DNA of 64,000 nt. Source: Candidatus Terrybacteria bacterium RIFCSPHIGHO2_01_FULL_48_17 (GTDB lineage: Bacteria > Patescibacteriota > Minisyncoccia > Terrybacterales > 2-01-FULL-58-14). Of this stretch, positions 4,264-62,835 are shown piece after piece; position 1 is the first letter of the stretch; each line of letters begins with the position of its first letter. The translations under genes were made by a program, and so were the position numbers. The notes under the pieces were generated by a model. The model saw only the letters and a list, made by a program, of their open reading frames with translations, was not told the DNA's origin and did not search any database. The stretch spans positions 7,186 through 71,185 of the forward strand of contig MHSS01000004.1 of NCBI GenBank assembly GCA_001822835.1, in the 5' to 3' direction.

Positions 4264-4290
4264 ATACAGGGTACAGGGTACAGGGTACAG
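4264..4290. repeat. tandem heptamer (GGGTACA) x3.7 in the znuC 5' leader
   Basis: tacagggtacagggtacagggtacag read directly. Confidence 0.9.
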
Positions 4291-4310
4291 CGTTGGAACG
4301 CAGTATATAA

Positions 4311-4340
4311 AGGTGAAGGCCCCGACCGTTTGGTCGGGGC
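4311..4340. terminator. strong stem-loop GGCCCCGACC-GTTT-GGTCGGGGCC, likely terminator of the minus-strand two-gene module
   Basis: 10-bp perfect GC-rich stem read in the sequence. Confidence 0.6.
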
Positions 4341-4354
4341 CCTCTATTTAGTTA

Positions 4355-4686
4355 TTAGGCCGTTGGCTTCTGCTTGCCGAGGCGCTCGCCCGTCTGGTGG
4401 AGCACGCAGGCGAGAATCGGCAGCGTGCTGACCTCCCGCGCGCCCTTGTGAGGCACAAAGGAGAAGGGCAGCAGAACGTCAACCAGCACTTCGTCGTCCG
4501 GATACGTGTCACGGACAACGACGATCTTGCCGTCCCGCTTCTCCTTTTGGGGGATGACCACGACGGCCTTGCCGTGGTAATCGCGGAGAGGATACGCTGG
4601 GTCGCGTCCGGCAGCCAGACCCTCCGCAGACATCCGCACTTCGCAGACGTCACCGGCGCGGAACGTTGGGCCGAGGTTGGACATGT
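4355..4686 (-). CDS. hypothetical protein (about 110 aa from MSNLGPTF...), second gene of a GC-rich two-gene module
   Basis: Internal Met of track ORF 4355..4813 lies just after the stop of the upstream gene; GC content clearly above flanks. Confidence 0.4.
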
Positions 4687-4689
4687 GCT

Positions 4690-5079
4690 TCACGCCGATC
4701 CCTCCTTCTCGATGTCGATCTCTGCCCCGCACTCGGGACAGGCAATGGGGACATCGCTCTCCGGCGTCCACTCTCCGGCAGCGCACCCGCTTTTGCGGTT
4801 CGCGCACCGCCACCGGGTTAGGGAGCCCCTGCCCTGCCGAACCTTGCCGACGTTGAACTCCGTCGGGAGATGGGCAGTAATGCTCCTCTCCTCCGGCGTG
4901 TGCACGGTGATTTGCACCGCGTTCGCGCCAGCCACGATTGAGGTGACCACCCCATCGACCCTTCGATCCGGAAGCGGCTCCCGCTTCCGTTTCTGGGACT
5001 TGTCGTCCCAGACATGAGCTATGCGGCCGGTCTGGGTGAAATTCACCACGAAACCGACCTCGAGCTGTCCAGCCTTCAT
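4690..5079 (-). CDS. hypothetical protein with C-terminal zinc-ribbon (CxxC...CPEC)
   Basis: 129-aa ORF, GGAGG about 8 nt upstream of ATG, consensus promoter upstream. Confidence 0.5.
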   Translation of the reverse strand: MKAGQLEVGFVVNFTQTGRIAHVWDDKSQKRKREPLPDRRVDGVVTSIVAGANAVQITVHTPEERSITAHLPTEFNVGKVRQGRGSLTRWRCANRKSGCAAGEWTPESDVPIACPECGAEIDIEKEGSA

Positions 5080-5126
5080 CGGATTCCTCCTTTCCTTTAC
5101 GGCTGGTCTGGTAATGTACCTTCTTA

Positions 5127-15388: not shown

Positions 15389-17608
15389 ATGAGTAATCGG
15401 CTGTATTCATATACGCTCCCGCATGGCGTGGAGCTTCAGATAAGCTTTCCCGGTTACGCCGAACAGGCAAACGCAGAAACGCTTGTCCGGCTTGGCGATA
15501 CCGTTATACTCGTCACCACAGTCATGAAAGATGCCCGCAGTGACGGCGTGGGGTTTTTTCCTTTAACCGTAGAGTTTGAAGAAAAGTTTTATGCAGCAGG
15601 GGAGTTGCGCACGTCCCGGTTCGTAAAAAGAGAAGCCAAGCCATCAGATGAGGCGATTCTTGCTGCCCGCCTTATTGACCGCACCATCCGTCCCCGTTTC
15701 CCAAAGGGCATGCGCAACGAAGTGCAGGTGGTAGCAACGACGCTTTCGTATGACGGCGAGAACGATCCGGATATCCTCGGTATTTTGGGGGCCTCAATTG
15801 CCTTGTCGTGTTCCGATATTCCTTGGCACGGCCCGATTGCGGGCGTGCGAGTAGCAAAGCCCAATGGCACGATTTTGGTAAATCCTACCGTAGCCCAACG
15901 CGCGCAAGCAAAATCAGAAATTGTTATTGCCGGAACGAAAAATCGTATCAATATGATGGAAGCAGGCCTCAACGAACTTTCGCATCAAGAAGCACTTACC
16001 CTTATTGCCGATGGCCACAAAGAGGTACAAAAACTCTGCACATTTATTGAAAACATCGTTAAAGAGCAGGGAAAACCGAAAGTTGCCGCCGATCTCTTTG
16101 AACCACCGCGGGAACTGGTAAAAAACATTAGGGAACGCTTTGGCAAAGAGCTAAAAACAGCGCTTTTTGAAGTACCCGGCAAAGTCGAATCGCAAAGCAA
16201 TTTACGCGAACTTGAAGAACGGGCCATCGAGGAAATAGGGGACGAGCAGACAAGCGCACAACATATCCGCGAAGCATTCGAGAACGAAATCAATCGGGTC
16301 GTACACGAAGAAGCGCTTGAAAATGGACGCCGAGCAGACGGCAGGAAAAAGGATGAGGTGCGCATACTTCGTGCGCAAGCCGGAGTATTGCCGCGCACAC
16401 ACGGATCTTCTGTTTTTGTGCGTGGAACCACGCGCGCACTCGCAACCGTAACGCTTGCTGGGCCGGGTGAGCAGCAGCTTGTAGAAACCATGGAAGGGGA
16501 GTGGAAGAAAAATTTCATGCTTCATTATAATTTCCCGCCGTTTTCAGTAGGGGACATTAAGCCATTTCGCGGCCCGGGACGGCGCGAAATAGGCCATGGC
16601 GCTTTGGCGGAACGCGCTATTTCCCCCCTTATTCCTGACCGCGAGACGTTCCCTTATACTATTCGCGTGGTTTCGGAAATTCTTTCGTCAAACGGATCAT
16701 CATCAATGGCATCGGTCTGCGCCGGAACGCTTTCCCTTATGGACGCCGGCGTGCCTTTGAAAAAACCGGTTGCCGGCATCGCCATGGGGCTGATGATGGA
16801 ACAGGGAACAGGGGACGGGGGACAGGGGACAGGAAAATATCTGGTGTTAACGGATATTCAAGGGCCAGAGGATCATCATGGCGACATGGATTTGAAAGTG
16901 GCCGGCACTAAAGACGGTTTCACGGCTCTACAAATGGACGTAAAAATAGAAGGCGTAACATTGAGCGTAATTGAAGAAACGTTTGCGCAGGCACGAAACG
17001 CAATCGACCACATTTTAAAAACGATTACCGATGTTTTGCCGGCACCCCGGCCGTCGGTTGGACCATATGCGCCGAAGGTCCTTGTGCTTAAAATTAACCC
17101 GGATCGCATCCGAGATGTCATCGGTCCTGGCGGCCGCGTGATCAATACCATCATTGAAGAAACGGGTGCTACGATTGACGTTGAACAAGATGGCACTGTG
17201 TATGTTACGTCAATCGATGAGGCGGCCGCGCAAAAAGCGCTTGCATGGGTCAGAAACCTCACCCGCGAAATTATGCCGGGGGAAGAATTTGAAGGAAAAG
17301 TATCACGCATATTTCCGTTTGGCGTGATGCTGGAAATCATGCCGGACAAAGAAGGCCTTATACACGTTTCTGCCCTTGAGCGGTTTAGCATTAGGCACCC
17401 CGGGGATGCCTTTAAGCCCGGACAGGTCGTTCCTGTAGTAGTAAAGGAGATTGACGATCAAGGAAGAGTAAACCTGGCATTAAAGGAAGGATACCAGCCA
17501 GAGGTACAAAGCAGCGGATTTTCCCGTCCGCCGCTCCCTCCTCGTCCGCACCACGGAGGCCCGCGAAGAGGTTTTGGTGGGAATCGTCAGTCCCGAGATC
17601 GTTATTGA
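15389..17608 (+). CDS. pnp: polynucleotide phosphorylase with Arg/Gly-rich C-terminal tail and a heptamer-encoded loop insertion
   Basis: Two RNase PH domains, KH + S1; DEDHHGDMDLKVAGT motif. Confidence 0.95.
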   Translation: MSNRLYSYTLPHGVELQISFPGYAEQANAETLVRLGDTVILVTTVMKDARSDGVGFFPLTVEFEEKFYAAGELRTSRFVKREAKPSDEAILAARLIDRTIRPRFPKGMRNEVQVVATTLSYDGENDPDILGILGASIALSCSDIPWHGPIAGVRVAKPNGTILVNPTVAQRAQAKSEIVIAGTKNRINMMEAGLNELSHQEALTLIADGHKEVQKLCTFIENIVKEQGKPKVAADLFEPPRELVKNIRERFGKELKTALFEVPGKVESQSNLRELEERAIEEIGDEQTSAQHIREAFENEINRVVHEEALENGRRADGRKKDEVRILRAQAGVLPRTHGSSVFVRGTTRALATVTLAGPGEQQLVETMEGEWKKNFMLHYNFPPFSVGDIKPFRGPGRREIGHGALAERAISPLIPDRETFPYTIRVVSEILSSNGSSSMASVCAGTLSLMDAGVPLKKPVAGIAMGLMMEQGTGDGGQGTGKYLVLTDIQGPEDHHGDMDLKVAGTKDGFTALQMDVKIEGVTLSVIEETFAQARNAIDHILKTITDVLPAPRPSVGPYAPKVLVLKINPDRIRDVIGPGGRVINTIIEETGATIDVEQDGTVYVTSIDEAAAQKALAWVRNLTREIMPGEEFEGKVSRIFPFGVMLEIMPDKEGLIHVSALERFSIRHPGDAFKPGQVVPVVVKEIDDQGRVNLALKEGYQPEVQSSGFSRPPLPPRPHHGGPRRGFGGNRQSRDRY
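16803..16833. repeat. heptamer tandem repeat (GGGGACA-type) inside pnp, in-frame (QGTGDGGQGTG)
   Basis: gggaacaggggacgggggacaggggacagg; the corresponding loop in E. coli PNPase (GLVKEGDNYVV) is about 10 aa shorter. Confidence 0.85.
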
Positions 17609-22898: not shown

Positions 22899-23042
22899 CT
22901 CTATTGCCTCATTTCTTAAAGATCAATTACGATAAAAGTAATATACCACATTTGTACCAAAAAGCAATGCCTTAAATTCTTACCACAAATCCCCGTATAG
23001 ACGGGGCTTCTGTACCCTATACCCTAAACTCTGTTACCCGAA

Positions 23043-25340: not shown

Positions 25341-26169
25341 GTGTATGGAGTTAGCCTCAAGAATATCTGTTCAGCGGCTTTTGAAACAATACGGTATAAA
25401 ACCGCGCAAGGCGCTTGGGCAAAATTTTTTGGTATCGGCCGTTACGCGAAATAAACTGGTGGGGGCTGCATATATAAAGGAAAACGACACGGTGATTGAA
25501 ATCGGAGCAGGGCTTGGCGCGGTTACTCAAGAACTTGCCCGTCGCGCCAAAAAAGTCGTTGCGATTGAGCGCGACGAGAACCTCTGTGTTATCCTGGAGA
25601 ACCTTTTTAAGAACACGCCAAACGTCGAAATCGTCTGCGAAGACGCGCTGAAACAGCTACCAGTAATCAGTAATCAGCTACCAGTTTATAAGGTGATCGG
25701 AAACATTCCTTATAAAATCACAGGCCCGCTAGTGCGAACATTGGTAGATTCAACGCAGCCGCCGCAAAAAATCGTTTTTATGGTGCAAAAAGAGGTGGGG
25801 GAGCGCATATGCGCCAAACCGCCCCATATGAGCTTATTGGCTCTTGCGGCCCAGCATGCTGCGCGCACTTCCTATATATACACAGTTGGGAGGCGTAATT
25901 TTTACCCCCATCCAGCAGTTGATAGCGCTATTATTGCCATTACGCCCAAAAAACACGACCAAAACCAAGACGAAGGCCTTTTTATGGTTGCAAAAACGGC
26001 TTTTCGGTCTCCCCGCAAACAAATTTTGGGCGCACTTTCACGGAATCTCGGTAAAAGCCGGATGGAGGTGGAAAAAATTCTCTCCTTGTGCAAGATTTCG
26101 TCTTCCTCGCGCCCGCAAGAACTCTCTGTTGAACAATGGCATTGCCTTGCTGAAAAGCTTATACGATAA
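25336..26169 (+). CDS. rsmA: 16S rRNA (adenine1518/1519-N6)-dimethyltransferase
   Basis: GQNFL, IEIGAGLGAVT SAM motif, GNIPYKIT; contains the heptamer-encoded segment at 25655-25690 (CAGTAAT repeats). Confidence 0.9.
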   Translation: MLCMELASRISVQRLLKQYGIKPRKALGQNFLVSAVTRNKLVGAAYIKENDTVIEIGAGLGAVTQELARRAKKVVAIERDENLCVILENLFKNTPNVEIVCEDALKQLPVISNQLPVYKVIGNIPYKITGPLVRTLVDSTQPPQKIVFMVQKEVGERICAKPPHMSLLALAAQHAARTSYIYTVGRRNFYPHPAVDSAIIAITPKKHDQNQDEGLFMVAKTAFRSPRKQILGALSRNLGKSRMEVEKILSLCKISSSSRPQELSVEQWHCLAEKLIR

Positions 26170-30480: not shown

Positions 30481-31413
30481 ATGAAACGTACGCTTATTAT
30501 TACAATCGGGGTTATTGTGGTCGGAGGGCTTGCGCTTGTCGGCGCATATTCCCTATTTCGCGGACCGACACTGGGAGTGCTTGTAAACGTATTGCGTTTT
30601 TTGGGAACACCGATTGCGCAAGAAGACACGGGAGCAACGGTTGAAGGGCCATCGTTCACAGAAGACCGTGATAGCGACGGCTTATCCGATGCCAAAGAAG
30701 AAATTTACGGCACAAACTCCGACCTCCCAGACACGGACGGCGATAACTTCACCGATGGCGCTGAAGTACGCAAGGGTTTTGACCCGAAAGTCGCCGGGCA
30801 AGGAAAAATTGCGGACAATCCGGAACTGATGCGAAATCTCACTATTGCCTATTTTGAATGGGCAAGGGAAACGTCAAACATCGAAGATCCGCAGCTTGCC
30901 GAACAGGGTATTCAAACATTTTTGATCAGCCGCAAACAAGACCGGCTCATTTTACCAACGGTTGAAGATAACGAGATTGTACGCACCGACGCCTCCGGAC
31001 CAGATGCCGTTAAAGCATACCTCGACGCCTTTGCTCAAGTAACCCTTCCCCCCGTAACCGCCTCGTACCTGGACCTTGCGGAAGGAAGTTTACAAGAAGA
31101 AACGCAAACCATTATTGATACGGTGGTTTTGGGGATCGATGCAACCTACGAGCAAATTCGCCGTATCCCAACGCCCCAAGAGGCAATTGAAGTGCAACGA
31201 GGGCAGCTTGCAACCATGAAAGCATTAAAGGAGCTTTTTTTGGATCTTAAAAGCGTCAGGCGGGATCCGGTAAAACTGATACGCGACATTTCCTGGGGTA
31301 ACGAACTTGTACTCAAATCAGCGGATATTGAGAAAAAACGCCAGGAACTTGGCTTAATTACAAATCCGGCATTTCAAAATAGTAATCAGGGGACAGGGGA
31401 CAGTAATCAGTAA
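30481..31413 (+). CDS. N-terminal TM + TSP3-like Ca-binding motif protein (DRDSDGLSD...DTDGDNFTDGAE)
   Basis: motif read directly; C-terminus encoded by heptamer repeats (QGTGDSNQ). Confidence 0.55.
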   Translation: MKRTLIITIGVIVVGGLALVGAYSLFRGPTLGVLVNVLRFLGTPIAQEDTGATVEGPSFTEDRDSDGLSDAKEEIYGTNSDLPDTDGDNFTDGAEVRKGFDPKVAGQGKIADNPELMRNLTIAYFEWARETSNIEDPQLAEQGIQTFLISRKQDRLILPTVEDNEIVRTDASGPDAVKAYLDAFAQVTLPPVTASYLDLAEGSLQEETQTIIDTVVLGIDATYEQIRRIPTPQEAIEVQRGQLATMKALKELFLDLKSVRRDPVKLIRDISWGNELVLKSADIEKKRQELGLITNPAFQNSNQGTGDSNQ

Positions 31414-36480: not shown

Positions 36481-37341
36481 ATGCCGGTTTTAACGCCTCA
36501 ACTATCTCCGCAACTTTTGGAAACCGCAGGGGACGAACGCACAGAAAAAGCCATCGCTTGGATCGCACAACGTTGGAAACTAAAAAGTGCTGACGATTTT
36601 GTGGCACAAGGCGCAAATTTTCAAGAAGCCCTCAGGCAATCACAAGTTTTTGTCCTTTCGCAAACAGTAGGAGAAGTGCTTGCGGGCAAGCTTCACCCCA
36701 ATTTTGTGGTAAAAACCCTTGAAGAACGCCTGAATATTCCACGCGACCGTGCACGCGACATTGCACATGACGTTTCGCGCGAAATTTTCTCGCGCGTACG
36801 AAGGGAGCTCATGGATTATTACCGGATAACGCCCGAACAGAAAGTTGCGCACCCCTCTCGGGACGCGGACCTACGCGGACAGGACGCAGACAAACACGGA
36901 CAACAGGAAGAGCCGATGAAGCCGTCAATGGCGGAGAGCATACAGGGTACAGGGTACAGGGCACAGGAATCAGAAGACGGGGGACAGGGAATAGAAATTG
37001 GGGAACCGGGATTGGCAATCAGTAATCAGAAATCAGAAATCGGGGATCGGGGGATGGAAGTTAAGGAAGAAGCACCGGCGCCGCCGCAAGAATCAGAATT
37101 AAAAGAGATCCCGCAACAACCACCTTTTGATGCGACGTTAGGCAAACCAAGTTTGGTAGAACAAGTGGAAGAAAAGTCGTTTCCCGAAAACATACAGCAA
37201 ACAGGGGACAGGGGACAGGAAACCGGGGCACAGGGGACGGGGGACGGGGGACAGGGGACAGTAAACGGAAAACCCGTTGCCGGACACGATAAACCGGAGC
37301 ACTTTGAGCCAGGACCGGGCCAGGTTATCGATCTAAGATGA
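36481..37341 (+). CDS. hypothetical protein whose C-terminal half is encoded by heptamer tandem repeats (QGTG-rich)
   Basis: repeats at 36941-37055 and 37199-37263. Confidence 0.5.
   Translation: MPVLTPQLSPQLLETAGDERTEKAIAWIAQRWKLKSADDFVAQGANFQEALRQSQVFVLSQTVGEVLAGKLHPNFVVKTLEERLNIPRDRARDIAHDVSREIFSRVRRELMDYYRITPEQKVAHPSRDADLRGQDADKHGQQEEPMKPSMAESIQGTGYRAQESEDGGQGIEIGEPGLAISNQKSEIGDRGMEVKEEAPAPPQESELKEIPQQPPFDATLGKPSLVEQVEEKSFPENIQQTGDRGQETGAQGTGDGGQGTVNGKPVAGHDKPEHFEPGPGQVIDLR
36941..37055. repeat. about 17 consecutive degenerate heptamers (ACAGGGT/ACAGGGC/TCAGAAA/TCGGGGA ...)
   Basis: strict 7-nt periodicity read directly. Confidence 0.9.
37199..37263. repeat. (GGGGACA)-type heptamer array, about 9 units
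   Basis: aacaggggacaggggacaggaaaccggggcacaggggacgggggacgggggacaggggaca. Confidence 0.9.
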
Positions 37342-37354
37342 GTTGAAAATTAAA

Positions 37355-37405
37355 GGTTAAGAGTTAAGAGTTAAATTCTTAATTCTCGATTTTAGATTTT
37401 TAATT
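37355..37405. repeat. AT-rich heptamer-periodic array (GTTAAGA GTTAAGA GTTAAAT TCTTAAT ...) in an intergenic spacer
   Basis: read directly. Confidence 0.8.
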
Positions 37406-37407
37406 TA

Positions 37408-37860
37408 TTGAGTGTGCAAGTCAAAGTTCCCAAATTCATTGATATTGAAGATAAAGTTATTTTTGGCTTAACCTGGCGCCAATTTTTATTCTTGGGCGTA
37501 GGTGGCGGAGTCGGCATTGTTGCGTTCTATGTTTTAGTACAACCCTTAGGAACAGCAATCGGTGTTGTTTCTATGACCATTGGTGCAATCTTTGCGTTAG
37601 TCAAAATAAACAACCGCCCCATGCATATATTTGTATATTCATTGTGGAACTATTTTTTTAACCCACGCCAATACACATGGAAAAAAGAAGCGACCGCGGC
37701 AAGGACAGCGAAAGTGACCAAAATCACAAAAAAGGAGACGCCGGCAACTCCCAAAACCATAACTCCGGAACGACTAAAACGCCTTTCGGTATTGCTAGAT
37801 ATCCAAGGACAAAAACAATCTGATGCCAATGTCAAAGTCCAAAGCTCAAATGCCAAATAA
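37408..37860 (+). CDS. PrgI/VirB3-like small membrane protein
   Basis: N-terminal VPKFIDIEDKVIFGLTWRQFLFLGVGGGV followed by two TM helices, about 150 aa, located before the VirB4 genes. Confidence 0.55.
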   Translation: MSVQVKVPKFIDIEDKVIFGLTWRQFLFLGVGGGVGIVAFYVLVQPLGTAIGVVSMTIGAIFALVKINNRPMHIFVYSLWNYFFNPRQYTWKKEATAARTAKVTKITKKETPATPKTITPERLKRLSVLLDIQGQKQSDANVKVQSSNAK

Positions 37861-37960
37861 AACCCAAAATCCCAAGCTCAAATACCAAAACCCGTGCGTT
37901 TTTATGCTTTGGATTTTCGTCATTGATTTGTCATTTGGATTTTGAAATTTGGATTTAGTA
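37836..37960. repeat. about 125-bp imperfect palindromic element with 7-nt periodicity (CCAAA-rich arm / cgtgcg centre / TTTGG-rich arm); copy 1
   Basis: shares AAATCCCAA and CATTTGGATTT signatures with the copy at 45836-45960. Confidence 0.6.
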
Positions 37961-37964
37961 GCCG

Positions 37965-38633
37965 TTGCTTATGCCTCAAGTATCCACCCAATCGTTTCTT
38001 CAGTTTGAGTTCGTCCGTGAAGGCGCGATTGTCCTTCGGGGCGGAGGACTGCGTGCAATTTTAATGGTGTCGGGATCAAATTTCGGCCTGAAATCCCAGG
38101 AAGAGCAAGAGGCAACGGTATATGCATTTCAGAATTTCCTCAATTCTCTTGATTTTGACATCCAAATAACCATACATTCGCGTAAAATTGATATCGAACC
38201 CTATCTTGCAACGCTTGGAGAACGTCTTGAACGGGCAGAGACCGATCTTTTGCGCGTGCAGACGCGCGAATATATCGAGTTTATCCGTTCTTTTGTTGAA
38301 GGCGCAAACATTATGGCAAAGCAGTTTTTTGTCATAGTGCCATACGACCCGGTAACCGGCACCAAAGAAAGGGGAGTTGTAGCAAAAGCAAGGGCACTGC
38401 TTCCTGTTTCAAAAAAAGAAACGGTTTTAGAGGAAGAAAATTTTGAAACAAATCGCAAACAGCTTATGGAGCGCGTTGAGTTTACGGTTCAGGGCCTGCA
38501 TAAAACCGGTCTTCGCTCAACCGCGCTCTCAACGGAAGAGATTATAGAACTTCTGTGGAAGCTTTATAATCCGGAAAAGGAAGCAAAGGGACAAATGCCA
38601 AATTTTGAAGAACTTGGTGCGGCTTCGGACTAA
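37965..38633 (+). CDS. VirB4/TrbE N-terminal domain (CagE_TrbE_VirB-like) as a separate ORF
   Basis: LRGGGLRAILMVSGSNFGLKSQEEQEATVYAFQNFLNSLDFDIQITIHSRKIDIEPYL matches the VirB4 N-domain pattern; in-frame stop, then 78-nt gap. Confidence 0.6.
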   Translation: MLMPQVSTQSFLQFEFVREGAIVLRGGGLRAILMVSGSNFGLKSQEEQEATVYAFQNFLNSLDFDIQITIHSRKIDIEPYLATLGERLERAETDLLRVQTREYIEFIRSFVEGANIMAKQFFVIVPYDPVTGTKERGVVAKARALLPVSKKETVLEEENFETNRKQLMERVEFTVQGLHKTGLRSTALSTEEIIELLWKLYNPEKEAKGQMPNFEELGAASD

Positions 38634-41906: not shown

Positions 41907-43189
41907 GGAATCGTAGCCAGCACGACCACAAAGAGAACGGCTAAGTCGTTTTTAAGAATTGGGGTATCGATAAGGCCGTGGAGAATAATCGCAGCTAGAG
42001 CTGCGAAGGGAATAGGGAATAGGGAATAGGGAATAGACGAGGAATGGCGAAGCGCTAGGAGCGCTTTTTTTGTTATGACAAAAAGGAGCCATAAAAAACC
42101 GGAGAGTCCCAAAAGGCCTGCGGACAACCAGATAGCAAGAAAAATGTTATGTGGTTGCGGCACTGCCCACTCAAGGTATGGAGGAAATTGCGGCTGCACG
42201 CTAAGGAAATAATACTGAAATGCCCCGGGACCAATACCAAAAAACCAATGGTCTTTTAAAATTTCAAGTGCGGCTTGCCATACCATAATGCGTGAAGCAA
42301 AAGAGGAACGAGCGCCGGTATCGAAAACAATAAAGGCCGCAGTTGTTGCGACAACCACCAAGAAAAGTGCGGCAAAAACTGCTTTAAGGGGAATCTTGCG
42401 TGTAAGCAATAAAAGCGTAAGCGCGCCAAGCGCGGCGCTTATGATGCCTCCCGATGATTGTGTAAACAAAAGGGCTATAGCGATAACGCCAAACGCTATA
42501 CCAAAACCAAAGCGTATTTTTTTAGTTGTCTCAAAGAGGAACAATCCAAGCGCAACGGCAAGCGCTGGGGCCAATACCATCGCAAGATGGTTTGGCGACA
42601 AAAAAAATCCGCGCAAGCGCATATCATACGTTACAAAATCGCCACCAAACAGGGCGCCAATAAGCGCACCGCTTGCTTGAAGCGCAGCCCCCACAACAAC
42701 TGCCGCCAAAAACAGTTTTTTGTTTCGGACATCTTGCTGCACAAACGCATACGCCGCAACGCCGAATAAAACAGGTAGGATAAAAATGCTTTTTAACTCT
42801 CCCAGTGCCCGCAACTGCAACCAAAAACCAGCCGTAATCGTAGCGAAGGCGGCGCCCAAAATAATTAAACTAGCCGGGGCTATCCACCATGGCAGGGAAA
42901 GCTCAATTTTTTTGCGCAACCACAAAGCGAAAAACCCCGCAAGGGCCCCCATCACCAAAAGATCAAGAGCGTTTGTACGCAGCGCGCCTTCGCGGATACG
43001 GATAAGATAAAGCGGCGTTAATAAAATAACCACCACAACGGCATCGCGCGGCCTCAACAAAGTAAGCACAAGGAACAACCCCGCTCCTGCTGCAACCACT
43101 ATAAGCTCAAGCGGGGTGGTGGCGATTATTTCCATAAAAAGAGAGTTGTGCCGTGCCAGCCGCAAAACCAGCCAGCACAACAAATACAA
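41903..43189 (-). CDS. O-antigen ligase/Wzy-like polytopic membrane protein; contains heptamer-encoded segment SSIPYSLFPIPF (42007-42037)
   Basis: 10+ TM helices; GGGAATA x3 on the opposite strand. Confidence 0.55.
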   Translation of the reverse strand: MYLLCWLVLRLARHNSLFMEIIATTPLELIVVAAGAGLFLVLTLLRPRDAVVVVILLTPLYLIRIREGALRTNALDLLVMGALAGFFALWLRKKIELSLPWWIAPASLIILGAAFATITAGFWLQLRALGELKSIFILPVLFGVAAYAFVQQDVRNKKLFLAAVVVGAALQASGALIGALFGGDFVTYDMRLRGFFLSPNHLAMVLAPALAVALGLFLFETTKKIRFGFGIAFGVIAIALLFTQSSGGIISAALGALTLLLLTRKIPLKAVFAALFLVVVATTAAFIVFDTGARSSFASRIMVWQAALEILKDHWFFGIGPGAFQYYFLSVQPQFPPYLEWAVPQPHNIFLAIWLSAGLLGLSGFLWLLFVITKKALLALRHSSSIPYSLFPIPFAALAAIILHGLIDTPILKNDLAVLFVVVLATIP

Positions 43190-55433: not shown

Positions 55434-55471
55434 AAGGGATAGTGAATATGGGGTAGAGAGTAGAGAATGGC

Positions 55472-56198: not shown

Positions 56199-56248
56199 CA
56201 GGGATTGGGGGGTTAGGGAATAGGGAACAGAAATCGGGGAATGGGATT
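56199..56248. repeat. GGGAATA/GGGAACA/GGGGAAT heptamer cluster in the yebC leader
   Basis: ggattggggggttagggaatagggaacagaaatcggggaatggg. Confidence 0.8.
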
Positions 56249-58485: not shown

Positions 58486-58523
58486 TGGTTAGCAAATAGG
58501 GATTAGAGAATAGAGAATAGGGG

Positions 58524-58745
58524 CTATTGTTGGAGGAGTTCGGGCAGGGAGCTCCAGGGAGTGGCAAGAAATGATGCAAGAATCAGAATAGCCCAAACAA
58601 TGGTGCCGACAAGAAATAAAACAAGCAATTGCCTCGAACGGTCGCCCTGGACCGCATATTTTTTAATATGGTATACGATGGCTGCAGAAACTGCGCCAAA
58701 AAATAAAAGACCCAAAAGCAGAAAAGCGGCGGCGAGGAAAAACAT
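58524..58745 (-). CDS. small two-TM membrane protein
   Basis: 73 aa hydrophobic; flanked on both sides by GGGAATA-type repeats (58493-58524, 58753-58786). Confidence 0.4.
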   Translation of the reverse strand: MFFLAAAFLLLGLLFFGAVSAAIVYHIKKYAVQGDRSRQLLVLFLVGTIVWAILILASFLATPWSSLPELLQQ

Positions 58746-58785
58746 ATTCTATAAGGGAATAGGGAGTAGGGAATAGGGAATAAAA

Positions 58786-59814
58786 CTAGAAGAGCTTCGT
58801 ATTTCTGTTGTCAGGGGGTTTGAGACCCAGGTGTTCCCAGGCCTCGGCCGCTGCTACGCGTCCTCTCGGGGTGCGCAGCACGTATCCGATTTGCATAAGA
58901 TATGGCTCGACAAAATCAAGGAGCGTATCCTCTTCTTCAGAAAGCGAGGCGGCGAGCGCCTGGATGCCGGCTGGCCCACCCTTAAATTTTTCTATAAGAA
59001 TACGCAGGTATTCCCGATCGAGCTTATCGAGCCCTTTTTCGTCTATTTCCAGCATCGAAAGCGTCCGTTCGGTAGTGACGTCGTCGATGTTTGGCGATTT
59101 CGTGCCACCTTCAACTTGCGCCACATCCCGTGCGCGTTTTAAAAGCCGGTTGGCAATGCGAGGCGTTTGGCGCGCGGCTTTTGCGATGCGTTTTTTCGCT
59201 TGCGCGTCCAAAGATACCCCAAGCAATCGGGCGGATCGCCCAAGGATTTCTTCAATTTCGTCATCCGTATAAAAATCTAAACGAAATGCCTGACCGAATC
59301 GTGATCGGAGGGGGGAAGACAAAAGCCCTACGCGCGTGGTCGCGGCGATTAATGTGAACGGCGGAAGATTCAATTGCAGTGTACGCGCAGCTGTGCCTTT
59401 GCCAAGAATAATATCTAGCGTCCGCGCTTCCATCGCGGGGTACAGCACCTCCTCCACCATGCGGGGAAGTCGGTGGGCCTCATCGATGAAAAGCACCTCG
59501 CCTGGTTCAAGATTTGTAAGTATGGACGCAAGATCACCAACGCGTTCGATGGCGGGGCCGGAAGTTACGCGCATGGTTGCTGTCATATGTTTTGCAATAA
59601 GATGTGCGAGCGTTGTTTTCCCAATACCCGCGGGACCGTGCAGTAATATATGGTCAAGCGTACCTTCTCGTAAGCGAGCGGCTTGTATGGCGATAAGCAA
59701 ATTTTCTTTTGCCTGTTTTTGGCCCACATATTCCTCGAATACTTCTGGGCGAAGCGTTAATTCAAGGGTCGGATCTTGCGCTAAAGGGGCGCGAGGGCGT
59801 TCGCTTTTTGGCAT
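58786..59814 (-). CDS. ruvB: Holliday junction branch-migration helicase RuvB (start chosen at MPKSERPRAP; the track's 59979 start reads through a structured RNA region)
   Basis: ...LRPEVFEEYVGQ, Walker A GPAGIGKTTLA, Walker B LFIDEAHRL. Confidence 0.9.
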   Translation of the reverse strand: MPKSERPRAPLAQDPTLELTLRPEVFEEYVGQKQAKENLLIAIQAARLREGTLDHILLHGPAGIGKTTLAHLIAKHMTATMRVTSGPAIERVGDLASILTNLEPGEVLFIDEAHRLPRMVEEVLYPAMEARTLDIILGKGTAARTLQLNLPPFTLIAATTRVGLLSSPLRSRFGQAFRLDFYTDDEIEEILGRSARLLGVSLDAQAKKRIAKAARQTPRIANRLLKRARDVAQVEGGTKSPNIDDVTTERTLSMLEIDEKGLDKLDREYLRILIEKFKGGPAGIQALAASLSEEEDTLLDFVEPYLMQIGYVLRTPRGRVAAAEAWEHLGLKPPDNRNTKLF

Positions 59815-59823
59815 ATGGGATAG

Positions 59824-59852
59824 TTGACAAAAATATAGAAATCTGCTATAAT
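59824..59852 (+). promoter_or_regulatory. perfect consensus promoter TTGACA-17-TATAAT on the plus strand
   Basis: ttgacaaaaatatagaaatctgctataat. Confidence 0.6.
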
Positions 59853-59859
59853 TCTTTAC

Positions 59860-60058
59860 AGAGGAGCGTTTGGCGAGTTGCCGGCCCCGGCTCCGGTCGG
59901 GGAGGGGATATCCTGGCGGATGGGCCATCAGGCCTTGGCTCGATGGTTCCTCGAGGATATCCTTCCTCGTGGTTCCCAAGCCAAGAGATTTTCCGGCAAC
60001 TCGCCGAGCGTTTCTTTCGATTCGTCCCTCTTTGAGGGGCGATCTTTATTTTATTTTG
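59860..60058 (+). ncRNA. candidate structured small RNA of about 190 nt (6S-like architecture: about 20-bp terminal helix closing a structured core), ending in an intrinsic terminator
   Basis: 5' AGCGTTTGGCGAGTTGCCGG pairs with 3' CCGGCAACTCGCCGAGCGTT; internal GGATATCC palindromes; terminator CCCTC-TTTG-AGGGG + TTTATTTTATTTT. Confidence 0.4.
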
Positions 60059-61746
60059 AAAAGCTCCTCCATATCTTCAAGTGGTCCGGTGACGCGTTCA
60101 AGTTCTGCCGTATCGGTAGTGCCATCCAAGACGCGCAGCAGGCCATCCTGTTGCATGGTTACCATTCCACGTTCGGCTGCGGTCTTGCGAACCTCAAAAG
60201 TGGATGGCTTTTTAAGTGTAAGCGATTCCATTGCAGAGTCCATGGGGAATAATTCAAAGATGCCTACGCGGCCGCGATAACCGGTATTGTGGCATGCGGC
60301 ACATCCTTTTGCGTAAAAGAGCTCAAGCCCCTTTGAAAAGGTCGGCATAAGTGGCGCGGGAAGGCCCGCAAGAGCTTTTTTGATTCGACTCGTCATTTCC
60401 TCATTTAGGGTGGCGCTCGTTGCGCATTCTTTACAAAGACGGCGCAACAGCCGTTGTCCTATAATAAGCGAGAGTGCGGGCGCGATGGTTTCTGGTTTTG
60501 CGCCAAGCTCAATAAGTCGCGGTATGGCTCCTGGGGCATCGTTGGTATGGAGCGTTGAGAAAACGAGATGCCCGGTAAGTGCTGCTTGTAACGCGATGTT
60601 TGCGGTTTCTATATCACGCACCTCTCCTACCAAAACATAGTCCGGATCCTGCCGTACGATCGAGCGCAGCCCAACCGCAAATGTGTATTTAGCTTCTGTA
60701 TCCACTTGCGTCTGTTCAATTCCCCGAATGCGGTACTCGATAGGATCTTCGATCGTAATGATTTTTACTTTTGGCGTGGTGACGTGGCGTACCAAGGCAT
60801 ACAGCAGAGTAGTTTTTCCGGATCCGGTGGGACCGGTGGTAAGAATCATTCCATTTGGTTGTTTTAACCCTTCCCGAATTTTTTCCAAAAGATCTTGCCG
60901 CAGCCCAAGCTCCTCCAGGCTTAACAGGTTTCGCGGGTTTAGAATCCGAAGCGTTACAAACTCCCCGTATTTTCCCGGAAGGGAAGATGCGCGGATTTCA
61001 ATATCTTGTTGTTCTACATGGATGGTGAAGCGGCCATCTTGCGCGCGATCTCGTACATTAAGTTTTAATCCCGCAAGAAGTTTAAGGCGTTCCAGCACCA
61101 GGTTATACATTTCTTGTTCAAGCTCGGCGATGTCTTGCAAAATACCATCTATACGGAGACGAACAAGCGATTTTTTTTCTTGGGGTTCGATATGGATATC
61201 TGAGGCATCGGCAAAAAGCCCTCCTGCCAAAACAAGATTCACCGCAACTCCAAAATCTCGCGGTTCGATCTGTTGCAACAGTTTACGCAGCTCATCAAGC
61301 GCATTCAGTTGTTTTTTAAACGCTGCGATATCCGCGCTTGAGATGCTTACTTCTCCAGAAATGCGTTGGCCCCCACGAGCATATTTTTCATATTCTGAAA
61401 GAAGTTCCAAAAAACCACTTTGCGAGATAACGGAAAGTTTTGGTTTAAGGCCCTGTTGTTCAAGCTCCTCCAAAAACTCTTTTGTTTCTTTACGTTCGGG
61501 ATTGGGGGTTATGATACCAATGCCATGGTCTTCTTGGCTATACGGGAAAGCCAGGGCTTGCGTAAGCTTCTCTTTTGGATAACGGGACAACACCATGCTG
61601 TCGATAGAGACGCTTTCGTGTTGTGTAAAGGGAAGCTTGAGGCGTTGGGCAAGCTCTCGACCCCGTTCTTCCTCTTCGCGCCTGTGTAAAGCCGAGATTT
61701 TTTTTGCAACTGCATTTCGATCGTTCGTGCCGAATGTGTCTGGCAT
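60046..61746 (-). CDS. pilB: GspE/PilB-family secretion or type IV pilus assembly ATPase
   Basis: Walker A GPTGSGKTTL, Asp box, Walker B, His box, tetracysteine CxxC...CxxC. Confidence 0.9.
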   Translation of the reverse strand: MPDTFGTNDRNAVAKKISALHRREEEERGRELAQRLKLPFTQHESVSIDSMVLSRYPKEKLTQALAFPYSQEDHGIGIITPNPERKETKEFLEELEQQGLKPKLSVISQSGFLELLSEYEKYARGGQRISGEVSISSADIAAFKKQLNALDELRKLLQQIEPRDFGVAVNLVLAGGLFADASDIHIEPQEKKSLVRLRIDGILQDIAELEQEMYNLVLERLKLLAGLKLNVRDRAQDGRFTIHVEQQDIEIRASSLPGKYGEFVTLRILNPRNLLSLEELGLRQDLLEKIREGLKQPNGMILTTGPTGSGKTTLLYALVRHVTTPKVKIITIEDPIEYRIRGIEQTQVDTEAKYTFAVGLRSIVRQDPDYVLVGEVRDIETANIALQAALTGHLVFSTLHTNDAPGAIPRLIELGAKPETIAPALSLIIGQRLLRRLCKECATSATLNEEMTSRIKKALAGLPAPLMPTFSKGLELFYAKGCAACHNTGYRGRVGIFELFPMDSAMESLTLKKPSTFEVRKTAAERGMVTMQQDGLLRVLDGTTDTAELERVTGPLEDMEELFKIK

Positions 61747-61936
61747 TAGTTCTATTGTACCATATTAGACGCGGACGTACGCTGACTAAACGCTGACTTA
61801 CGCGGAATCTCACACCCACACATGATAGTAGTTTACCGTAGCGCAGGATGTGGTGAGCGTCAATCGTTTCTTGACGAATTAACCGGTTTTTGTTATCCTC
61901 ATCGTGGCAGTTTGACAATAGGAAAAGGAAAAAAAG

Positions 61937-62290
61937 ATGACGCTTTTTGAGTTGATCGAAAAGAAGTTGAGGTTTGCTTCTGTTAATACCGAGTCATGGG
62001 CGGATGTAGAAAGAGTTATCATCTGGTCTGTGCCGCATAAGCCCCGATTGGATTTTTATCACCATATGGCTCCGCGTGCCGTTACGCCCGGAGAAGCAAA
62101 GCACTTATTTAAAAACGTAACCATTAATGGGGCCTCCTCGGGAGATGACACCCTCCCTGATTTTACGGTTATCACGAAACGATTCGTGGTCTTTGTTGAT
62201 CATCGTCAGCATTCTGCGCCGAGCACATATATCGGTCCGCGCCGTACGCATGACGTACTCACAGCAGCTCCGCGTCAGCCAATACTATAA
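61937..62290 (+). CDS. hypothetical protein
   Basis: TTGACG-17-TATCCT upstream; terminator CCGCC-CCCAAAA-GGCGG + T7 at 62292-62322. Confidence 0.45.
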   Translation: MTLFELIEKKLRFASVNTESWADVERVIIWSVPHKPRLDFYHHMAPRAVTPGEAKHLFKNVTINGASSGDDTLPDFTVITKRFVVFVDHRQHSAPSTYIGPRRTHDVLTAAPRQPIL

Positions 62291-62340
62291 TCCGCCCCCA
62301 AAAGGCGGCATTTTTTTGGATCTAAGATACAATAGAGGCA

Positions 62341-62835
62341 ATGGTGACGAAAAACGATAACGAATTGGTTGCGCTTGGAAAAAAGACAGGAGAAGCCCTG
62401 CGCCAACAAAAAAACGGTCCCCTGGTTCTTGCTTTGGTAGGGGAGCTGGGTTCCGGCAAAACCACATTTGTGCGCGGGCTTGCGAAGGGCCTTGGTATTC
62501 GTGCGCGCATTACCTCGCCAACGTTTGTGCTGGCGAAACGGTATCGTGTGCCCGCGATAAGAAACAAGAAACAAGAAACAAGAAACAAACAAGATACAAG
62601 ATACAAAAAACAAGAAACAAACCGGCAATACTTTTGGCACATGGACGCGTATCGGCTAAAAGATGGGCGTGACCTTGCGGGCATTGATTTTGAGGAAATA
62701 GTAAGCGACTCCGCAAATATTGTTGCCATTGAATGGGCAAACAAAATAAAACGCGCGATTCCGAAAGGCGCGCGCTGGATTCGTTTTTTCCATTTACCCG
62801 GCAATCGCCGCAAAATAATTTTTTCGATGGAATAA
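62341..62835 (+). CDS. tsaE: tRNA t6A37 biosynthesis ATPase TsaE, with about 20-aa insertion encoded by AGAAACA heptamer repeats
   Basis: GELGSGKTTFVRGL P-loop, ITSPTF, HMDAYRL. Confidence 0.8.
   Translation: MVTKNDNELVALGKKTGEALRQQKNGPLVLALVGELGSGKTTFVRGLAKGLGIRARITSPTFVLAKRYRVPAIRNKKQETRNKQDTRYKKQETNRQYFWHMDAYRLKDGRDLAGIDFEEIVSDSANIVAIEWANKIKRAIPKGARWIRFFHLPGNRRKIIFSME
62558..62623. repeat. (AGAAACA)n / (AGATACA)n heptamer array inside tsaE
   Basis: gataagaaacaagaaacaagaaacaagaaacaaacaagatacaagatacaaaaaacaagaaacaaacc. Confidence 0.9.

What the first reader, a model, noticed from the sequence alone, without database searches (positions are those of the whole stretch)
4264..62623. Family of tandem heptanucleotide repeats scattered across the window, including in-frame insertions in conserved enzymes
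Arrays with strict 7-nt periodicity occur at 4264-4290, 16803-16833, 23012-23030, 25655-25690, 31381-31413, 36941-37055, 37199-37263, 37355-37405, 42007-42037, 56199-56248, 58493-58524, 58753-58786 and 62558-62623. The units are GGGTACA, GGGGACA, GGGAATA, CAGTAAT, AGAAACA and GTTAAGA. Many lie in 5' leaders of minus-strand genes, where they read as C-rich CCCUGUA repeats in the mRNA. Others sit inside ORFs and stay translatable because three units make 21 nt. They produce a QGTGDGGQGTG loop insertion in PNPase, an insertion of about 20 aa (KKQETRNKQDTRYKKQET) in TsaE, a QLPVISNQLPV linker in KsgA, SSIPYSLFPIPF in a Wzy-like protein, and most of the C-terminal half of the 36481 protein. Each of these loops is longer than the corresponding E. 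coli segment. This points to an active, lineage-specific repeat-expansion process tolerated in surface loops of essential proteins. I do not recognise it as a described repeat class.
Basis: seen in the sequence. Interest (0 to 1): 0.75.

Follow-up and report, generated by a model that had tools for sequence, protein, structure and literature searches.

The report
Heptanucleotide tandem repeats in a Terrybacteria genome
The window, from an uncultured groundwater bacterium (Candidatus Terrybacteria), really is peppered with 7-base tandem repeats, some translated inside housekeeping proteins, but these belong to a repeat class already described in cyanobacteria and Xanthomonas.

Summary
There are 12 exact period-7 arrays against 0.1 expected, and no other period from 4 to 12 is enriched. 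The units phase into one degenerate G-rich family, GGGNAYA, with GTAATCA and GAAATCA variants.

The organism is a CPR/Patescibacteria bacterium, Candidatus Terrybacteria, from Rifle groundwater.

The class is already described: heptanucleotide long simple sequence repeats (Mrazek 2007), cyanobacterial heptamers, and G-rich GGGAATC/GGGGAYT repeats of Xanthomonas and Nostoc (Rehm 2015). Those repeats include intragenic copies and have the same orientation rule seen here.

The coding claims hold only in part:
- PNPase has a real 8-aa insertion and TsaE a real insertion of about 23 aa. Both lie in disordered loops and are lineage-specific.
- One protein gains a 12-aa C-terminal tail.
- The KsgA and Wzy-like arrays add no net length.

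"Active expansion" is weakly supported. No copy-number change appears in independent assemblies at any array they cover. The PNPase array has kept its length in a 78%-identical orthologue. One intergenic hairpin built from inverted heptamer arrays is wholly swapped between 99.96%-identical strains.

Most likely these are slippage-generated repeats filtered by selection.

Verdict: a new lineage for a known kind, of moderate interest.

The parts
2731..2745 (-). GGGGATA x2.1 in the 3' UTR of minus-strand gene 2764-3537. It is G-rich on the sense strand and is followed by a GC-rich terminator-like hairpin.
   Evidence: TRF; fold
4262..4290 (+). Perfect GGGTACA x3.7, 11 nt upstream of the start of the ABC ATPase gene (3544-4254, minus). 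It reads CCCUGUA in the mRNA and is unstructured.
16797..16836 (+). GGGAACA/GGGGACA x5 inside PNPase. It encodes EQGTGDGGQGTG, an 8-aa insertion in a beta-hairpin loop, and contains a canonical G4 motif.
23011..23031 (-). Weak array GAGTTTA GGGTATA GGGTACA in the 3' UTR of the M23 peptidase gene, before a terminator-like hairpin.
25654..25688 (+). CAGCTAC CAGTAAT CAGTAAT CAGCTAC CAGTTTA inside KsgA (QLPVISNQLPV). It occupies a variable linker with no net insertion.
31382..31413 (+). GTAATCA GGGGACA GGGGACA GTAATCA at the 3' end of gene 30481-31413. It encodes a 12-aa C-terminal tail, and the unit CAGTAAT supplies the stop codon.
36938..37063 (+). Seventeen or more in-phase degenerate heptamers in the C-terminal linker of protein 36481-37341.
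37197..37274 (+). GGGGACA-type array of about 10 units with one 1-nt phase shift, in the same protein. It contains a G4 motif.
37340..37410 (+). RNA hairpin of about 30 bp with 9 G.U pairs. The 5' arm is GTTAAGA x2.7. It lies between gene 36481 and the PrgI-family gene.
   Evidence: The + strand folds at -22.9 kcal/mol (z -6.9) and the - strand at -6.3 kcal/mol.
37813..37970 (+). Hairpin built from inverted heptamer arrays (CAAAGYC-type arm and TTTGGAT arm) that covers the PrgI C-terminus and 3' spacer. The population is polymorphic: the alternative 77-nt allele is built from GGGATAA/CCCTATW units.
42008..42036 (+). Perfect GGGAATA x4.3, antisense to the Wzy_C-family gene (41903-43135, minus). 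It is read as TATTCCC, giving SIPYSLFPIPF, adds no net length, and contains a G4 motif.
55434..55468 (+). Degenerate array GGGATAG TGAATAT GGGGTAG AGAGTAG AGAATGG that fills the YebC-RuvC spacer of minus-strand genes.
56201..56248 (+). Degenerate GGGAATA-type array that fills the whole spacer between the LTD-domain gene stop and the YebC start (minus-strand genes). It contains a G4 motif.
58495..58522 (+). GGGATTA GAGAATA GAGAATA GGGG, between the stop of a 73-aa small ORF and the start of the bPH-domain gene (minus-strand genes).
58751..58784 (+). GGGAATA x4.1, between the RuvB stop and the start of the 73-aa ORF (minus-strand genes). It contains a G4 motif.
62556..62621 (+). AAGAAAC x9.3 with a 5-nt partial unit, inside TsaE. 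It encodes IRNKKQETRNKQDTRYKKQETNR, which makes the loop about 23 aa longer than in B. subtilis TsaE.

Best explanation
These are heptanucleotide long simple sequence repeats (microsatellite-like arrays) of a lineage-specific G-rich family, GGGNAYA. They sit in a Candidatus Terrybacteria (CPR/Patescibacteria) genome.

Inferred mechanism. Arrays arise and change by strand slippage or template switching during replication or repair. Seven bases is the generally favoured long-unit size in prokaryotes, and G3N4 units may be favoured by non-B or G-quadruplex intermediates. Purifying selection then decides where arrays persist.

Shown. Arrays fill short intergenic spacers at about 11 times the per-base density of coding DNA. 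There they are G-rich on the antisense strand when just upstream of a start codon and on the sense strand when just after a stop.

Inside genes they survive only under three conditions:
- the unit has no stop codon in any frame in that orientation;
- the frame is restored, by 21-nt multiples or partial units;
- the peptide falls in a tolerant place, such as a disordered beta-hairpin loop (PNPase, TsaE), a variable linker (KsgA, Wzy-like, protein 36481) or a C-terminal tail (30481, PrgI).

Once fixed in genes they are length-stable. Intergenic arrays, often paired in inverted orientation as RNA hairpins, turn over as whole cassettes between close relatives.
For: Enrichment and family:
- Enrichment is specific to period 7.
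- The units phase into one family.
- That family is at chance level in 1.41 Mb of other loci, mostly Patescibacteria.
- Period-7 arrays of other sequence are common in that background: 1.8 per 64 kb against 0.14 for period 8. They also occur in another Terrybacteria genome.

Literature:
- Heptanucleotide repeats are the most abundant LSSR class in most genomes and are attributed to polymerase slippage (Mrazek 2007, as summarised in PMC4679880).
- G-rich GGGAATC and GGGGAYT repeats occur in Xanthomonas and Nostoc. They prefer about 4 units, 32% are intragenic in Nostoc, and they follow the same orientation rule (PMC4692102).

Position and orientation:
- All 7 G-type intergenic arrays here obey that orientation rule.
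- Intergenic DNA is 10.5% of the window and holds 9 of 16 arrays.

Selection filter:
- The stop-codon filter fits every coding array. GGGAATA occurs in a gene only in antisense orientation. GTAATCA never exceeds 2.4 units in an ORF, or else supplies the stop codon. GTTAAGA is intergenic only.
- Frame-restoring irregularities are present in the TsaE array and the 37197 array.
- The inserted peptides are coil loops of low pLDDT between strands. The same loops vary in length across Patescibacteria.

Stability and turnover:
- Coding arrays are stable.
- Intergenic cassettes turn over.
Against: - Slippage itself is not observed. No plus-or-minus one-unit polymorphism was seen at any array.
- The same few units recur at unlinked loci, which simple local slippage does not predict.
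- The KsgA and Wzy-like arrays add no net length. This needs extra deletions or a templated replacement.
- The one polymorphic site is a complete cassette swap, not a copy-number change.
- Some arrays belong to strand-specific RNA hairpins with G.U pairs, which implies function rather than neutrality.
- Only 64 kb of this genome plus about 50 kb of relatives were examined.
Confidence: 0.68

Rival explanations
1. The arrays are mainly functional cis-elements kept by selection. Three forms are possible:
- C-rich unstructured tracts (CCCUAUU, CCCUGUA) immediately upstream of start codons, acting as S1- or Csp-type protein-binding or translation-initiation sites in an organism that largely lacks Shine-Dalgarno sequences;
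- G-quadruplexes on the non-coding DNA strand that modulate transcription;
- inverted arrays acting as mRNA stem-loops (terminators, stabilisers or RNase III sites).

On this view the coding copies are by-products.
For: - Five arrays end 1-11 nt upstream of start codons, and every spacer in two minus-strand gene strings carries one.
- Only 7 of 50 genes have an SD-like core.
- Five canonical G4 motifs lie in arrays, against 0.45 expected.
- Hairpins at 37340-37410 and 15264-15388 are stable only as + strand RNA.
- The spacer upstream of pnp holds a long hairpin in both species despite different repeat arms.
- Similar proposals were made for TAACTGA and GGGAATC repeats.
Against: - Units differ between close relatives: AT-rich heptamers in L086 and decamers in L084.
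- A cassette can be present or absent at the S15|NYN junction.
- Arrays also lie in coding loops, where no such role applies.
- No binding protein, G4 formation or transcript end was tested.
- This explanation is compatible with a slippage origin, so it is a rival only on why the arrays are maintained.
Confidence: 0.3
2. The arrays spread by a sequence-directed, non-slippage process. Candidates are gene conversion between arrays at different loci, a very small mobile element, or templated addition at DNA breaks. Such a process would copy ready-made GGGNAYA cassettes into new sites, including genes.
For: - Identical units occur at unlinked loci: GGGGACA at three, GGGAATA at four, GGGTACA at two.
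- Mixed GTAATCA and GGGGACA arrays occur at two loci.
- The KsgA and Wzy-like arrays overwrite their segments without changing length.
- A whole cassette is swapped between 99.96%-identical strains, with SNPs hugging both breakpoints.
- An 87-nt cassette is precisely present or absent at the S15|NYN junction.
Against: - By inspection, there are no conserved flanks, terminal inverted repeats or target-site duplications.
- Copy number and unit mix differ at every site.
- No candidate transposase or reverse transcriptase lies next to the arrays.
- Unit recurrence can also come from sequence-dependent slippage propensity combined with the stop-codon filter.
Confidence: 0.12
3. The arrays are contingency loci. 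Changes in heptamer copy number would switch surface-structure genes (Wzy-like, T4SS or pilus proteins) on and off, or grade their expression.
For: - A period of 7 is not a multiple of 3.
- Several affected genes are surface-related: Wzy_C, PrgI, and the TSP3-repeat protein.
- From my own recall, not checked here: 7-bp promoter repeats are reported to grade hmw adhesin expression in Haemophilus influenzae.
Against: - No copy-number variant was found in any protein cluster or in any of up to 18 contigs from different samples.
- Arrays also lie in PNPase, TsaE and KsgA.
- All coding arrays are in frame and mostly imperfect.
Confidence: 0.04
4. The arrays are assembly or chimerism artefacts, or a chance pattern.
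For: The source is a metagenome-assembled genome. One contig (L092) breaks exactly at a repeat cassette.
Against: - The covered arrays are identical in independent assemblies and samples.
- The PNPase array is conserved in a different species.
- Observed 12 arrays against 0.1 expected.
Confidence: 0.01

Closest known systems
G-rich heptameric repeats GGGAATC (Xanthomonas) and GGGGA(C/T)T (Nostoc PCC 7120), Rehm et al. 2015 (PMC4692102)
   Same: - The unit is a G3-4 tract plus a 3-4 nt spacer, with a strict 7-nt period.
- Arrays are typically about 4 units and are scattered across the genome.
- They are enriched in non-coding DNA but also occur inside genes (32% in Nostoc).
- They are G-rich on the antisense strand within 50 bp upstream of ORFs, or on the sense strand just after stop codons.
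- Some form inverted pairs.
- They match the canonical G4 motif.
   Different: - The unit sequences differ: GGGGACA, GGGTACA and GGGAATA, plus non-G variants GTAATCA, GAAATCA and AAGAAAC.
- The host is a small-genome CPR bacterium.
- Arrays are documented here inside PNPase, TsaE and KsgA.
- G4 formation was not tested.
Heptanucleotide long simple sequence repeats (LSSR) of prokaryotes, Mrazek et al. 2007 (as summarised in PMC4679880)
   Same: - Tandem units fall in the 5-11 nt range, and 7 nt is by far the dominant period.
- Arrays are longer than chance predicts.
- The phylogenetic distribution is sporadic.
- Slippage is the proposed origin.
- Period-7 arrays of other sequence were also seen here in many unrelated genomes.
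   Different: That survey reported that coding-region repeats are mostly multiples of 3. Here 7 of 16 arrays are coding despite the 7-nt unit. No CPR genomes existed at the time of that survey.
Cyanobacterial tandem heptanucleotides (STRR) of Calothrix and Nostoc, cited in PMC4692102 ref. 39
   Same: A small set of specific heptamers is tandemly repeated at many loci of one genome. By my recollection STRR1 is CCCCAGT, the reverse complement of GGGGACT, which is one base away from GGGGACA here.
   Different: The units and the phylum differ. STRR were defined in heterocystous cyanobacteria, with about 100 copies per genome.
TAACTGA direct repeats of marine Beggiatoaceae, cyanobacteria and Bacteroidetes, MacGregor 2015 (PMC4679880)
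   Same: - Heptamer arrays of 2-6 units lie within a few nucleotides upstream of start codons.
- Occasional copies lie inside ORFs and are translated as 7-aa repeats.
- A stop-codon argument explains which orientation is tolerated.
   Different: The unit is a single, non-G-rich sequence. CAGTAAT here is one base from CAGTTAT, a rotation of the reverse complement of TAACTGA. The authors propose horizontal spread, and there is no evidence for that here.

Membership tests
Prokaryotic heptanucleotide LSSR (Mrazek 2007) | Head-to-tail tandem copies of a 5-11 nt unit, longer than expected for the genome's composition | tested here: met
   There are 12 exact period-7 arrays against 0.1 in shuffles. 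Only period 7 is enriched.
Prokaryotic heptanucleotide LSSR (Mrazek 2007) | Preferentially intergenic | tested here: met
   Nine of 16 arrays lie in the 10.5% of the window that is intergenic.
G-rich G4-type heptamer repeats (Rehm 2015) | The unit is a G3-4 tract plus spacer with a 7-nt period, and the consensus is GGGNAYN | tested here: met
   Phased units are GGGGACA, GGGTACA, GGGAATA, GGGATTA and GGGAACA. The family regex gives 10 hits on + and 1 on -, against 0.3 expected. The AAGAAAC and GTTAAGA arrays do not fit.
G-rich G4-type heptamer repeats (Rehm 2015) | Orientation rule: antisense within 50 bp upstream of an ORF, sense within 50 bp after a stop codon | tested here: met
   Arrays at 4262, 55434, 56201, 58495 and 58751 are antisense, 1-11 nt upstream of starts. 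Arrays at 2731 and 23011 are sense, 12-19 nt after stops.
G-rich G4-type heptamer repeats (Rehm 2015) | Bias toward four units, i.e. four G-tracts | tested here: inconclusive
   Perfect or near-perfect G-type arrays have 3.7, 4.1, 4.3 and 5 units. The sample is too small for a distribution.
G-rich G4-type heptamer repeats (Rehm 2015) | The oligonucleotides fold into G-quadruplexes | not testable with these tools
   Only motif-level evidence is available: 5 G3+N1-7 x4 motifs, all in arrays, against 0.45 expected.
Cyanobacterial STRR | Specific STRR unit sequences in heterocystous cyanobacteria | tested here: not met
   The organism is Candidatus Terrybacteria. The units differ from GGGGAYT by at least one base.
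TAACTGA repeats (MacGregor 2015) | The unit is exactly TAACTGA | tested here: not met
   No TAACTGA array is present. The nearest unit, CAGTAAT, differs by one base from the reverse complement.
Phase-variable contingency SSR | Copy-number polymorphism between closely related strains that switches the reading frame or promoter strength | tested here: not met
   No length variants appear in protein clusters or in DNA of up to 18 contigs from different samples, at the arrays those contigs cover.
MITE / small dispersed mobile repeat | Conserved ends (terminal inverted repeats), target-site duplication, and the same element at many sites | tested here: not met
   By inspection, array flanks share no sequence. 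Copy number and unit mix differ at each site. No formal genome-wide test was possible.

The most novel reading that the evidence does not exclude
In this CPR lineage, ready-made GGGNAYA cassettes may be written into new sites by a templated, non-slippage process. Candidates are array-to-array gene conversion or break-healing synthesis. This would explain three things:
- recurrence of identical units at unlinked loci;
- length-neutral overwriting of segments of KsgA and a Wzy-like protein;
- whole-cassette swaps between 99.96%-identical strains.

If true, this would be a repeat-driven way of remodelling protein loops, protein C-termini and mRNA hairpins in ultra-small genomes.
Probability: 0.1. 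Interest if true: 0.65.

Novelty: new member of a known kind. Interest (0 to 1): 0.35.

Why it matters
It extends the unexplained prokaryotic preference for 7-nt tandem repeats, and specifically G3N4 units, to the Candidate Phyla Radiation. My two full-text searches found no paper describing such repeats there.

CPR genomes are small and streamlined, so repeat-rich spacers and repeat-encoded loops in PNPase, TsaE and a T4SS-cluster protein are mildly unexpected. They give clean natural examples of how non-triplet microsatellites can be fixed inside essential genes. The conditions are the stop-codon filter, frame restoration and loop tolerance.

The finding also points to practical issues. Repeat cassettes are sites of strain polymorphism and of contig breaks in metagenome assemblies. 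Repeat-derived peptides inflate apparent sequence novelty in CPR proteins.

It does not reveal a new kind of system.

Tried and rejected
- **Cyanobacterial origin.** This was my first guess from the heptamers. It was rejected because the PNPase, KsgA and TsaE proteins are 100% identical to Candidatus Terrybacteria MAG proteins from Rifle groundwater.
- **Genome-contig scan with the PNPase alignment.** I used the loci only as a 1.3-1.4 Mb background set.
- **Two metagenome-contig scans with exact anchors next to arrays.** Both gave 0 hits, so no wider allele survey was possible.
- **Copy-number variants in 90% protein clusters.** None were found. The variants differ only in start-codon calls or single substitutions.
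- **Replication-strand explanation for the + strand bias of the G-rich strand.** Not supported. dnaA/dnaN and a sign change in skew place the origin near 48-52 kb, and arrays have the same orientation on both sides. Counted as independent loci, 9 against 2 is not significant.
- **Arrays replacing Shine-Dalgarno sites.** Rejected. The organism barely uses SD sequences anywhere (7 of 50 genes).
- **Rfam.** Only three tRNAs were found.
- **Literature on simple sequence repeats in CPR/Patescibacteria.** Nothing relevant was found.

Full report

Yes. Tandem Repeats Finder lists period-7 arrays at essentially all the coordinates given, and the raw sequence shows them directly.

- I counted exact self-matches at lag p, requiring at least two copies plus 3 nt. 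The window has 12 such arrays at period 7. Fifty dinucleotide-preserving shuffles give a mean of 0.1 and a maximum of 1. Periods 2-6 and 8-15 give 0-1, at chance.
- A tolerant test (at least 18 of 21 matches at lag p) finds 8 arrays at p=7 and none at any other period from 4 to 12.

Details to correct:
- 23012-23030 is a weak array of 2.5 units, G-rich on the minus strand.
- At 37355-37405 only the first 20 nt are tandem. The remainder is the pairing partner of a hairpin.
- 36938-37056 is 17 consecutive in-phase units.

The peptides quoted (QGTGDGGQGTG, KKQETRNKQDTRYKKQET, QLPVISNQLPV, SSIPYSLFPIPF) are all correct. Gene identities are confirmed by Pfam: PNPase, RrnaAD/KsgA, TsaE and Wzy_C.

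**2. What organism is it?**

It is not a cyanobacterium, which the heptamers first suggested to me. The PNPase, KsgA, TsaE and neighbouring proteins are identical to proteins of Candidatus Terrybacteria MAGs (CPR/Patescibacteria) from the Rifle aquifer. The same DNA occurs in ENA, JGI, NCBI and Logan assemblies of different samples.

The window holds a T4SS-like cluster, dnaA-dnaN and type IV pilus genes. This is typical CPR content, by my own knowledge.

**3. Anatomy of the family**

Cut in a common phase, the units form one degenerate family, G[G/A/T][G/A]N[A/T][C/T]N. Members are GGGGACA, GGGTACA, GGGAATA, GGGAACA, GGGATTA, GAGAATA, GTAATCA and GAAATCA. GTAATCA and GGGGACA units alternate in phase within single arrays at 31382 and 36938-37063, so they belong together. 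AAGAAAC (TsaE) and GTTAAGA are outliers.

- Three or more consecutive in-phase family units occur 10 times on the + strand and once on the - strand. About 0.3 per strand is expected.
- All five canonical G4 motifs of the window lie in arrays, against 0.45 expected.
- Intergenic DNA is 10.5% of the window and holds 9 of 16 arrays, roughly 11 times the coding density.
- All seven G-type intergenic arrays follow one rule. When 1-11 nt upstream of a start codon, the G-rich strand is antisense, so the mRNA carries unstructured CCCUAUU or CCCUGUA tracts (arrays at 4262, 55434, 56201, 58495, 58751). When 12-19 nt after a stop codon, the G-rich strand is sense and precedes a terminator-like hairpin (arrays at 2731, 23011).

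**4. The coding arrays, one by one**

*PNPase.* An 8-aa insertion relative to 20 relatives and to the 5yjj structure. It is shared only with a 78%-identical orthologue. An AlphaFold model places residues 471-483 as coil between strands 462-470 and 484-488, with pLDDT below 50. In the relative, the DNA array has the same length and 4 substitutions in 35 nt, about the divergence of the flanks. It is therefore old and length-stable.

*TsaE.* The loop between the strand ending at residue 70 and the one starting at residue 96 is about 23 aa longer than in B. subtilis TsaE. The nearest relative (P0133, 56% identity by BLASTP, 60% in the alignment) has a loop 13 aa shorter and lacks KKQET. The model shows coil with pLDDT 61-66. 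This loop is hypervariable across Patescibacteria.

*KsgA.* Not an insertion. The segment is one residue shorter than in another Terrybacteria orthologue and 5 aa shorter than in B. subtilis KsgA.

*Wzy-like protein.* The perfect 4.3-unit array adds no length against 16 relatives and runs into the last transmembrane helix.

*Protein 30481.* A 12-aa C-terminal tail that a relative lacks. The stop codon is supplied by a CAGTAAT unit.

*Protein 36481.* The N-terminal 125 aa are conserved. The C-terminal half is a variable low-complexity linker in relatives, and here 204 of its roughly 480 nt are written in heptamers.

A simple filter explains which units appear in ORFs and in which orientation:
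- GGGGACA, GGGTACA and AAGAAAC are open in all three frames.
- GGGAATA is open only as its complement, and it is antisense in the Wzy-like gene.
- GTAATCA has stops in both orientations. It never exceeds 2.4 units in an ORF, or it ends the ORF.
- GTTAAGA has stops in both orientations and is intergenic only.

Partial units in the TsaE array and the 37197 array restore the reading frame.

**5. Is the process active?**

Mostly there is no sign of it.
- Protein clusters at 90% identity contain no length variants attributable to repeats.
- DNA from a second MAG (99.96% identical over 20 kb), a JGI contig and ten further contigs shows no unit gain or loss at any array they cover (16797, 31382, 36938-37405, 42008, 55434-58784, 62556). 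The arrays at 2731, 4262, 23011 and 25654 were not covered.

There is one striking exception.
- Window 37813-37970 (158 nt) is replaced in four independent assemblies by an unrelated 77-nt sequence. SNPs lie within 8 nt of both breakpoints. A fifth contig ends exactly at the right breakpoint.
- Both alleles are inverted pairs of heptamer arrays that can form a hairpin and encode the last residues of the PrgI-family protein. The window allele folds significantly better than shuffled sequence (z -4.1); the alternative allele does not (z -1.3).

Between species, cassettes also come and go.
- The 78% relative has an 87-nt hairpin of decamer arrays inserted precisely at the S15|NYN junction, where the window has none.
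- The spacer upstream of pnp carries a long hairpin in both species, with a conserved outer stem and different repeat-built inner arms.

So coding arrays are frozen, and intergenic repeat-armed hairpins turn over quickly.

**6. How widespread is it?**

- In 1.34 Mb around PNPase genes of 80 other genomes, mostly Patescibacteria, period-7 arrays of diverse sequence occur at 1.8 per 64 kb. Periods 8-12 give 0 to 0.5.
- Another Terrybacteria genome has five AT-rich period-7 arrays in 22 kb, again in spacers, and one forms an inverted hairpin pair.
- The GGGNAYA family itself is at chance level outside this lineage.

The period is therefore general and the unit family is lineage-specific.

**7. 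Comparison with what is known**

- As summarised by MacGregor (PMC4679880), Mrazek et al. 2007 found that heptanucleotide repeats are the most abundant long SSR class in most prokaryotic genomes. They proposed polymerase slippage, with 7 nt as the footprint.
- Rehm et al. 2015 (PMC4692102) describe G-rich heptamers: GGGAATC in Xanthomonas and GGGGA(C/T)T in Nostoc. These prefer four units, form G4 structures in vitro, are over-represented in non-coding DNA, and are 32% intragenic in Nostoc. They show the same two preferred placements seen here. The paper also cites the earlier Calothrix tandem heptanucleotides.
- MacGregor 2015 describes TAACTGA arrays a few nucleotides upstream of start codons. 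These are occasionally translated as 7-aa repeats, and the paper makes the same stop-codon argument.

The finding is a member of this kind. It is not a member of the STRR or TAACTGA families in the strict sense, because unit and taxon differ. I found no paper on such repeats in CPR.

**8. Mechanism**

- Shown: period-specific enrichment, the family consensus, the positional and orientation rules, the stop-codon and frame filters, loop location, stability in genes, and cassette turnover in spacers.
- Inferred: an origin by slippage or template switching, favoured for G3N4 units, with selection deciding where arrays persist.
- Not excluded: maintenance for RNA-level or G4 function. Two hairpins are stable only as + strand RNA because of G.U pairs. 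A templated copying process is also not excluded. It would better explain identical units at unlinked loci, the length-neutral arrays in KsgA and the Wzy-like protein, and the cassette swap.
- Effectively excluded: phase variation and assembly artefact.

**9. Verdict**

It is partly wrong on three points: KsgA and the Wzy-like protein have no insertions, there is little evidence of ongoing expansion, and the class is already described. This is a new lineage (CPR) for a known kind, of moderate interest.

Noticed in passing
window 37813-37970; L087 11333-11409; L089, L091 and L093 at 683-759; L092 position 1: Strains of one species (99.96% identical) carry two unrelated alleles of a hairpin built from inverted heptamer arrays, at the PrgI 3' end. 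SNPs hug both breakpoints. One metagenome contig breaks exactly at the boundary.
   Followed up: partly
window 37340-37410: A 30-bp hairpin lies between gene 36481 and the PrgI-family gene. It is stable only as + strand RNA (-22.9 against -6.3 kcal/mol) because of 9 G.U pairs. This points to a functional mRNA structure such as a terminator, processing site or stabiliser.
   Followed up: partly
window 15264-15388; L084 8255-8404: A long strand-specific hairpin lies in the spacer just upstream of pnp in both species. The outer stem is conserved and the inner arms are built from different repeats (heptamer-like against decamers). From memory, this resembles the RNase III-cleaved autoregulatory hairpin of the E. 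coli pnp leader.
   Followed up: partly
window 61769-61806 and 36861-36902; L084 5431-5473, 7626-7712 and 8275-8352: There is a second tandem family with a 10-11 nt unit (ACGCKGACNN / CGCAGACNTAA). It often forms inverted pairs that fold as hairpins. An 87-nt cassette of it sits precisely at the S15|NYN junction in L084 and is absent from the window.
   Followed up: partly
L099 10229-10310 (TsaE of another Patescibacteria MAG); proteins P0147, P0156, P0168 and P0176; PNPase P0096: Other lineages carry peptides RQAQDK, FDKLRT and STGSGQA in the same TsaE and PNPase loops. In L099 the insert is a 38-nt tandem duplication containing TTCGACAAGCTCAGGACAAG. Its two copies are read in two different frames.
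   Followed up: partly
window, 50 gene starts: Only 7 of 50 genes have a Shine-Dalgarno-like core. Many have a TAnAAT-like box 7-12 nt before the ATG (for example at 1615, 9916, 11015, 61746 and 62344). This suggests leaderless or very short-leader mRNAs.
   Followed up: no
window 47158-49436: The order yidC/jag (minus), then dnaA and dnaN (plus), together with a sign change of AT and GC skew near 48-52 kb, suggests the replication origin is here. An AT-rich repeat, TTTATTATAT, lies at 49414-49432 between dnaA and dnaN.
   Followed up: no
window 4262-58784: The G-rich strand of family arrays is the + strand in 10 of 11 cases, and all 5 G4 motifs are on +. This holds on both sides of the putative origin and regardless of gene direction. 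Counted as independent loci (9 against 2) it is not significant, and it remains unexplained.
   Followed up: partly
L086 18905-18960: The spacer upstream of KsgA in another Terrybacteria genome holds GGTTAGGG / CCCTAAA-type heptamers as an inverted hairpin pair. By my own recall, the unit equals the plant-type telomere repeat. This is probably coincidence.
   Followed up: no
window 32323-41906: A T4SS-like cluster is present: TrbL/VirB6-like, PrgI-family, TraC-like, VirB4/TraG-like ATPase and T4SS_pilin genes. It contains three of the repeat sites.
   Followed up: no
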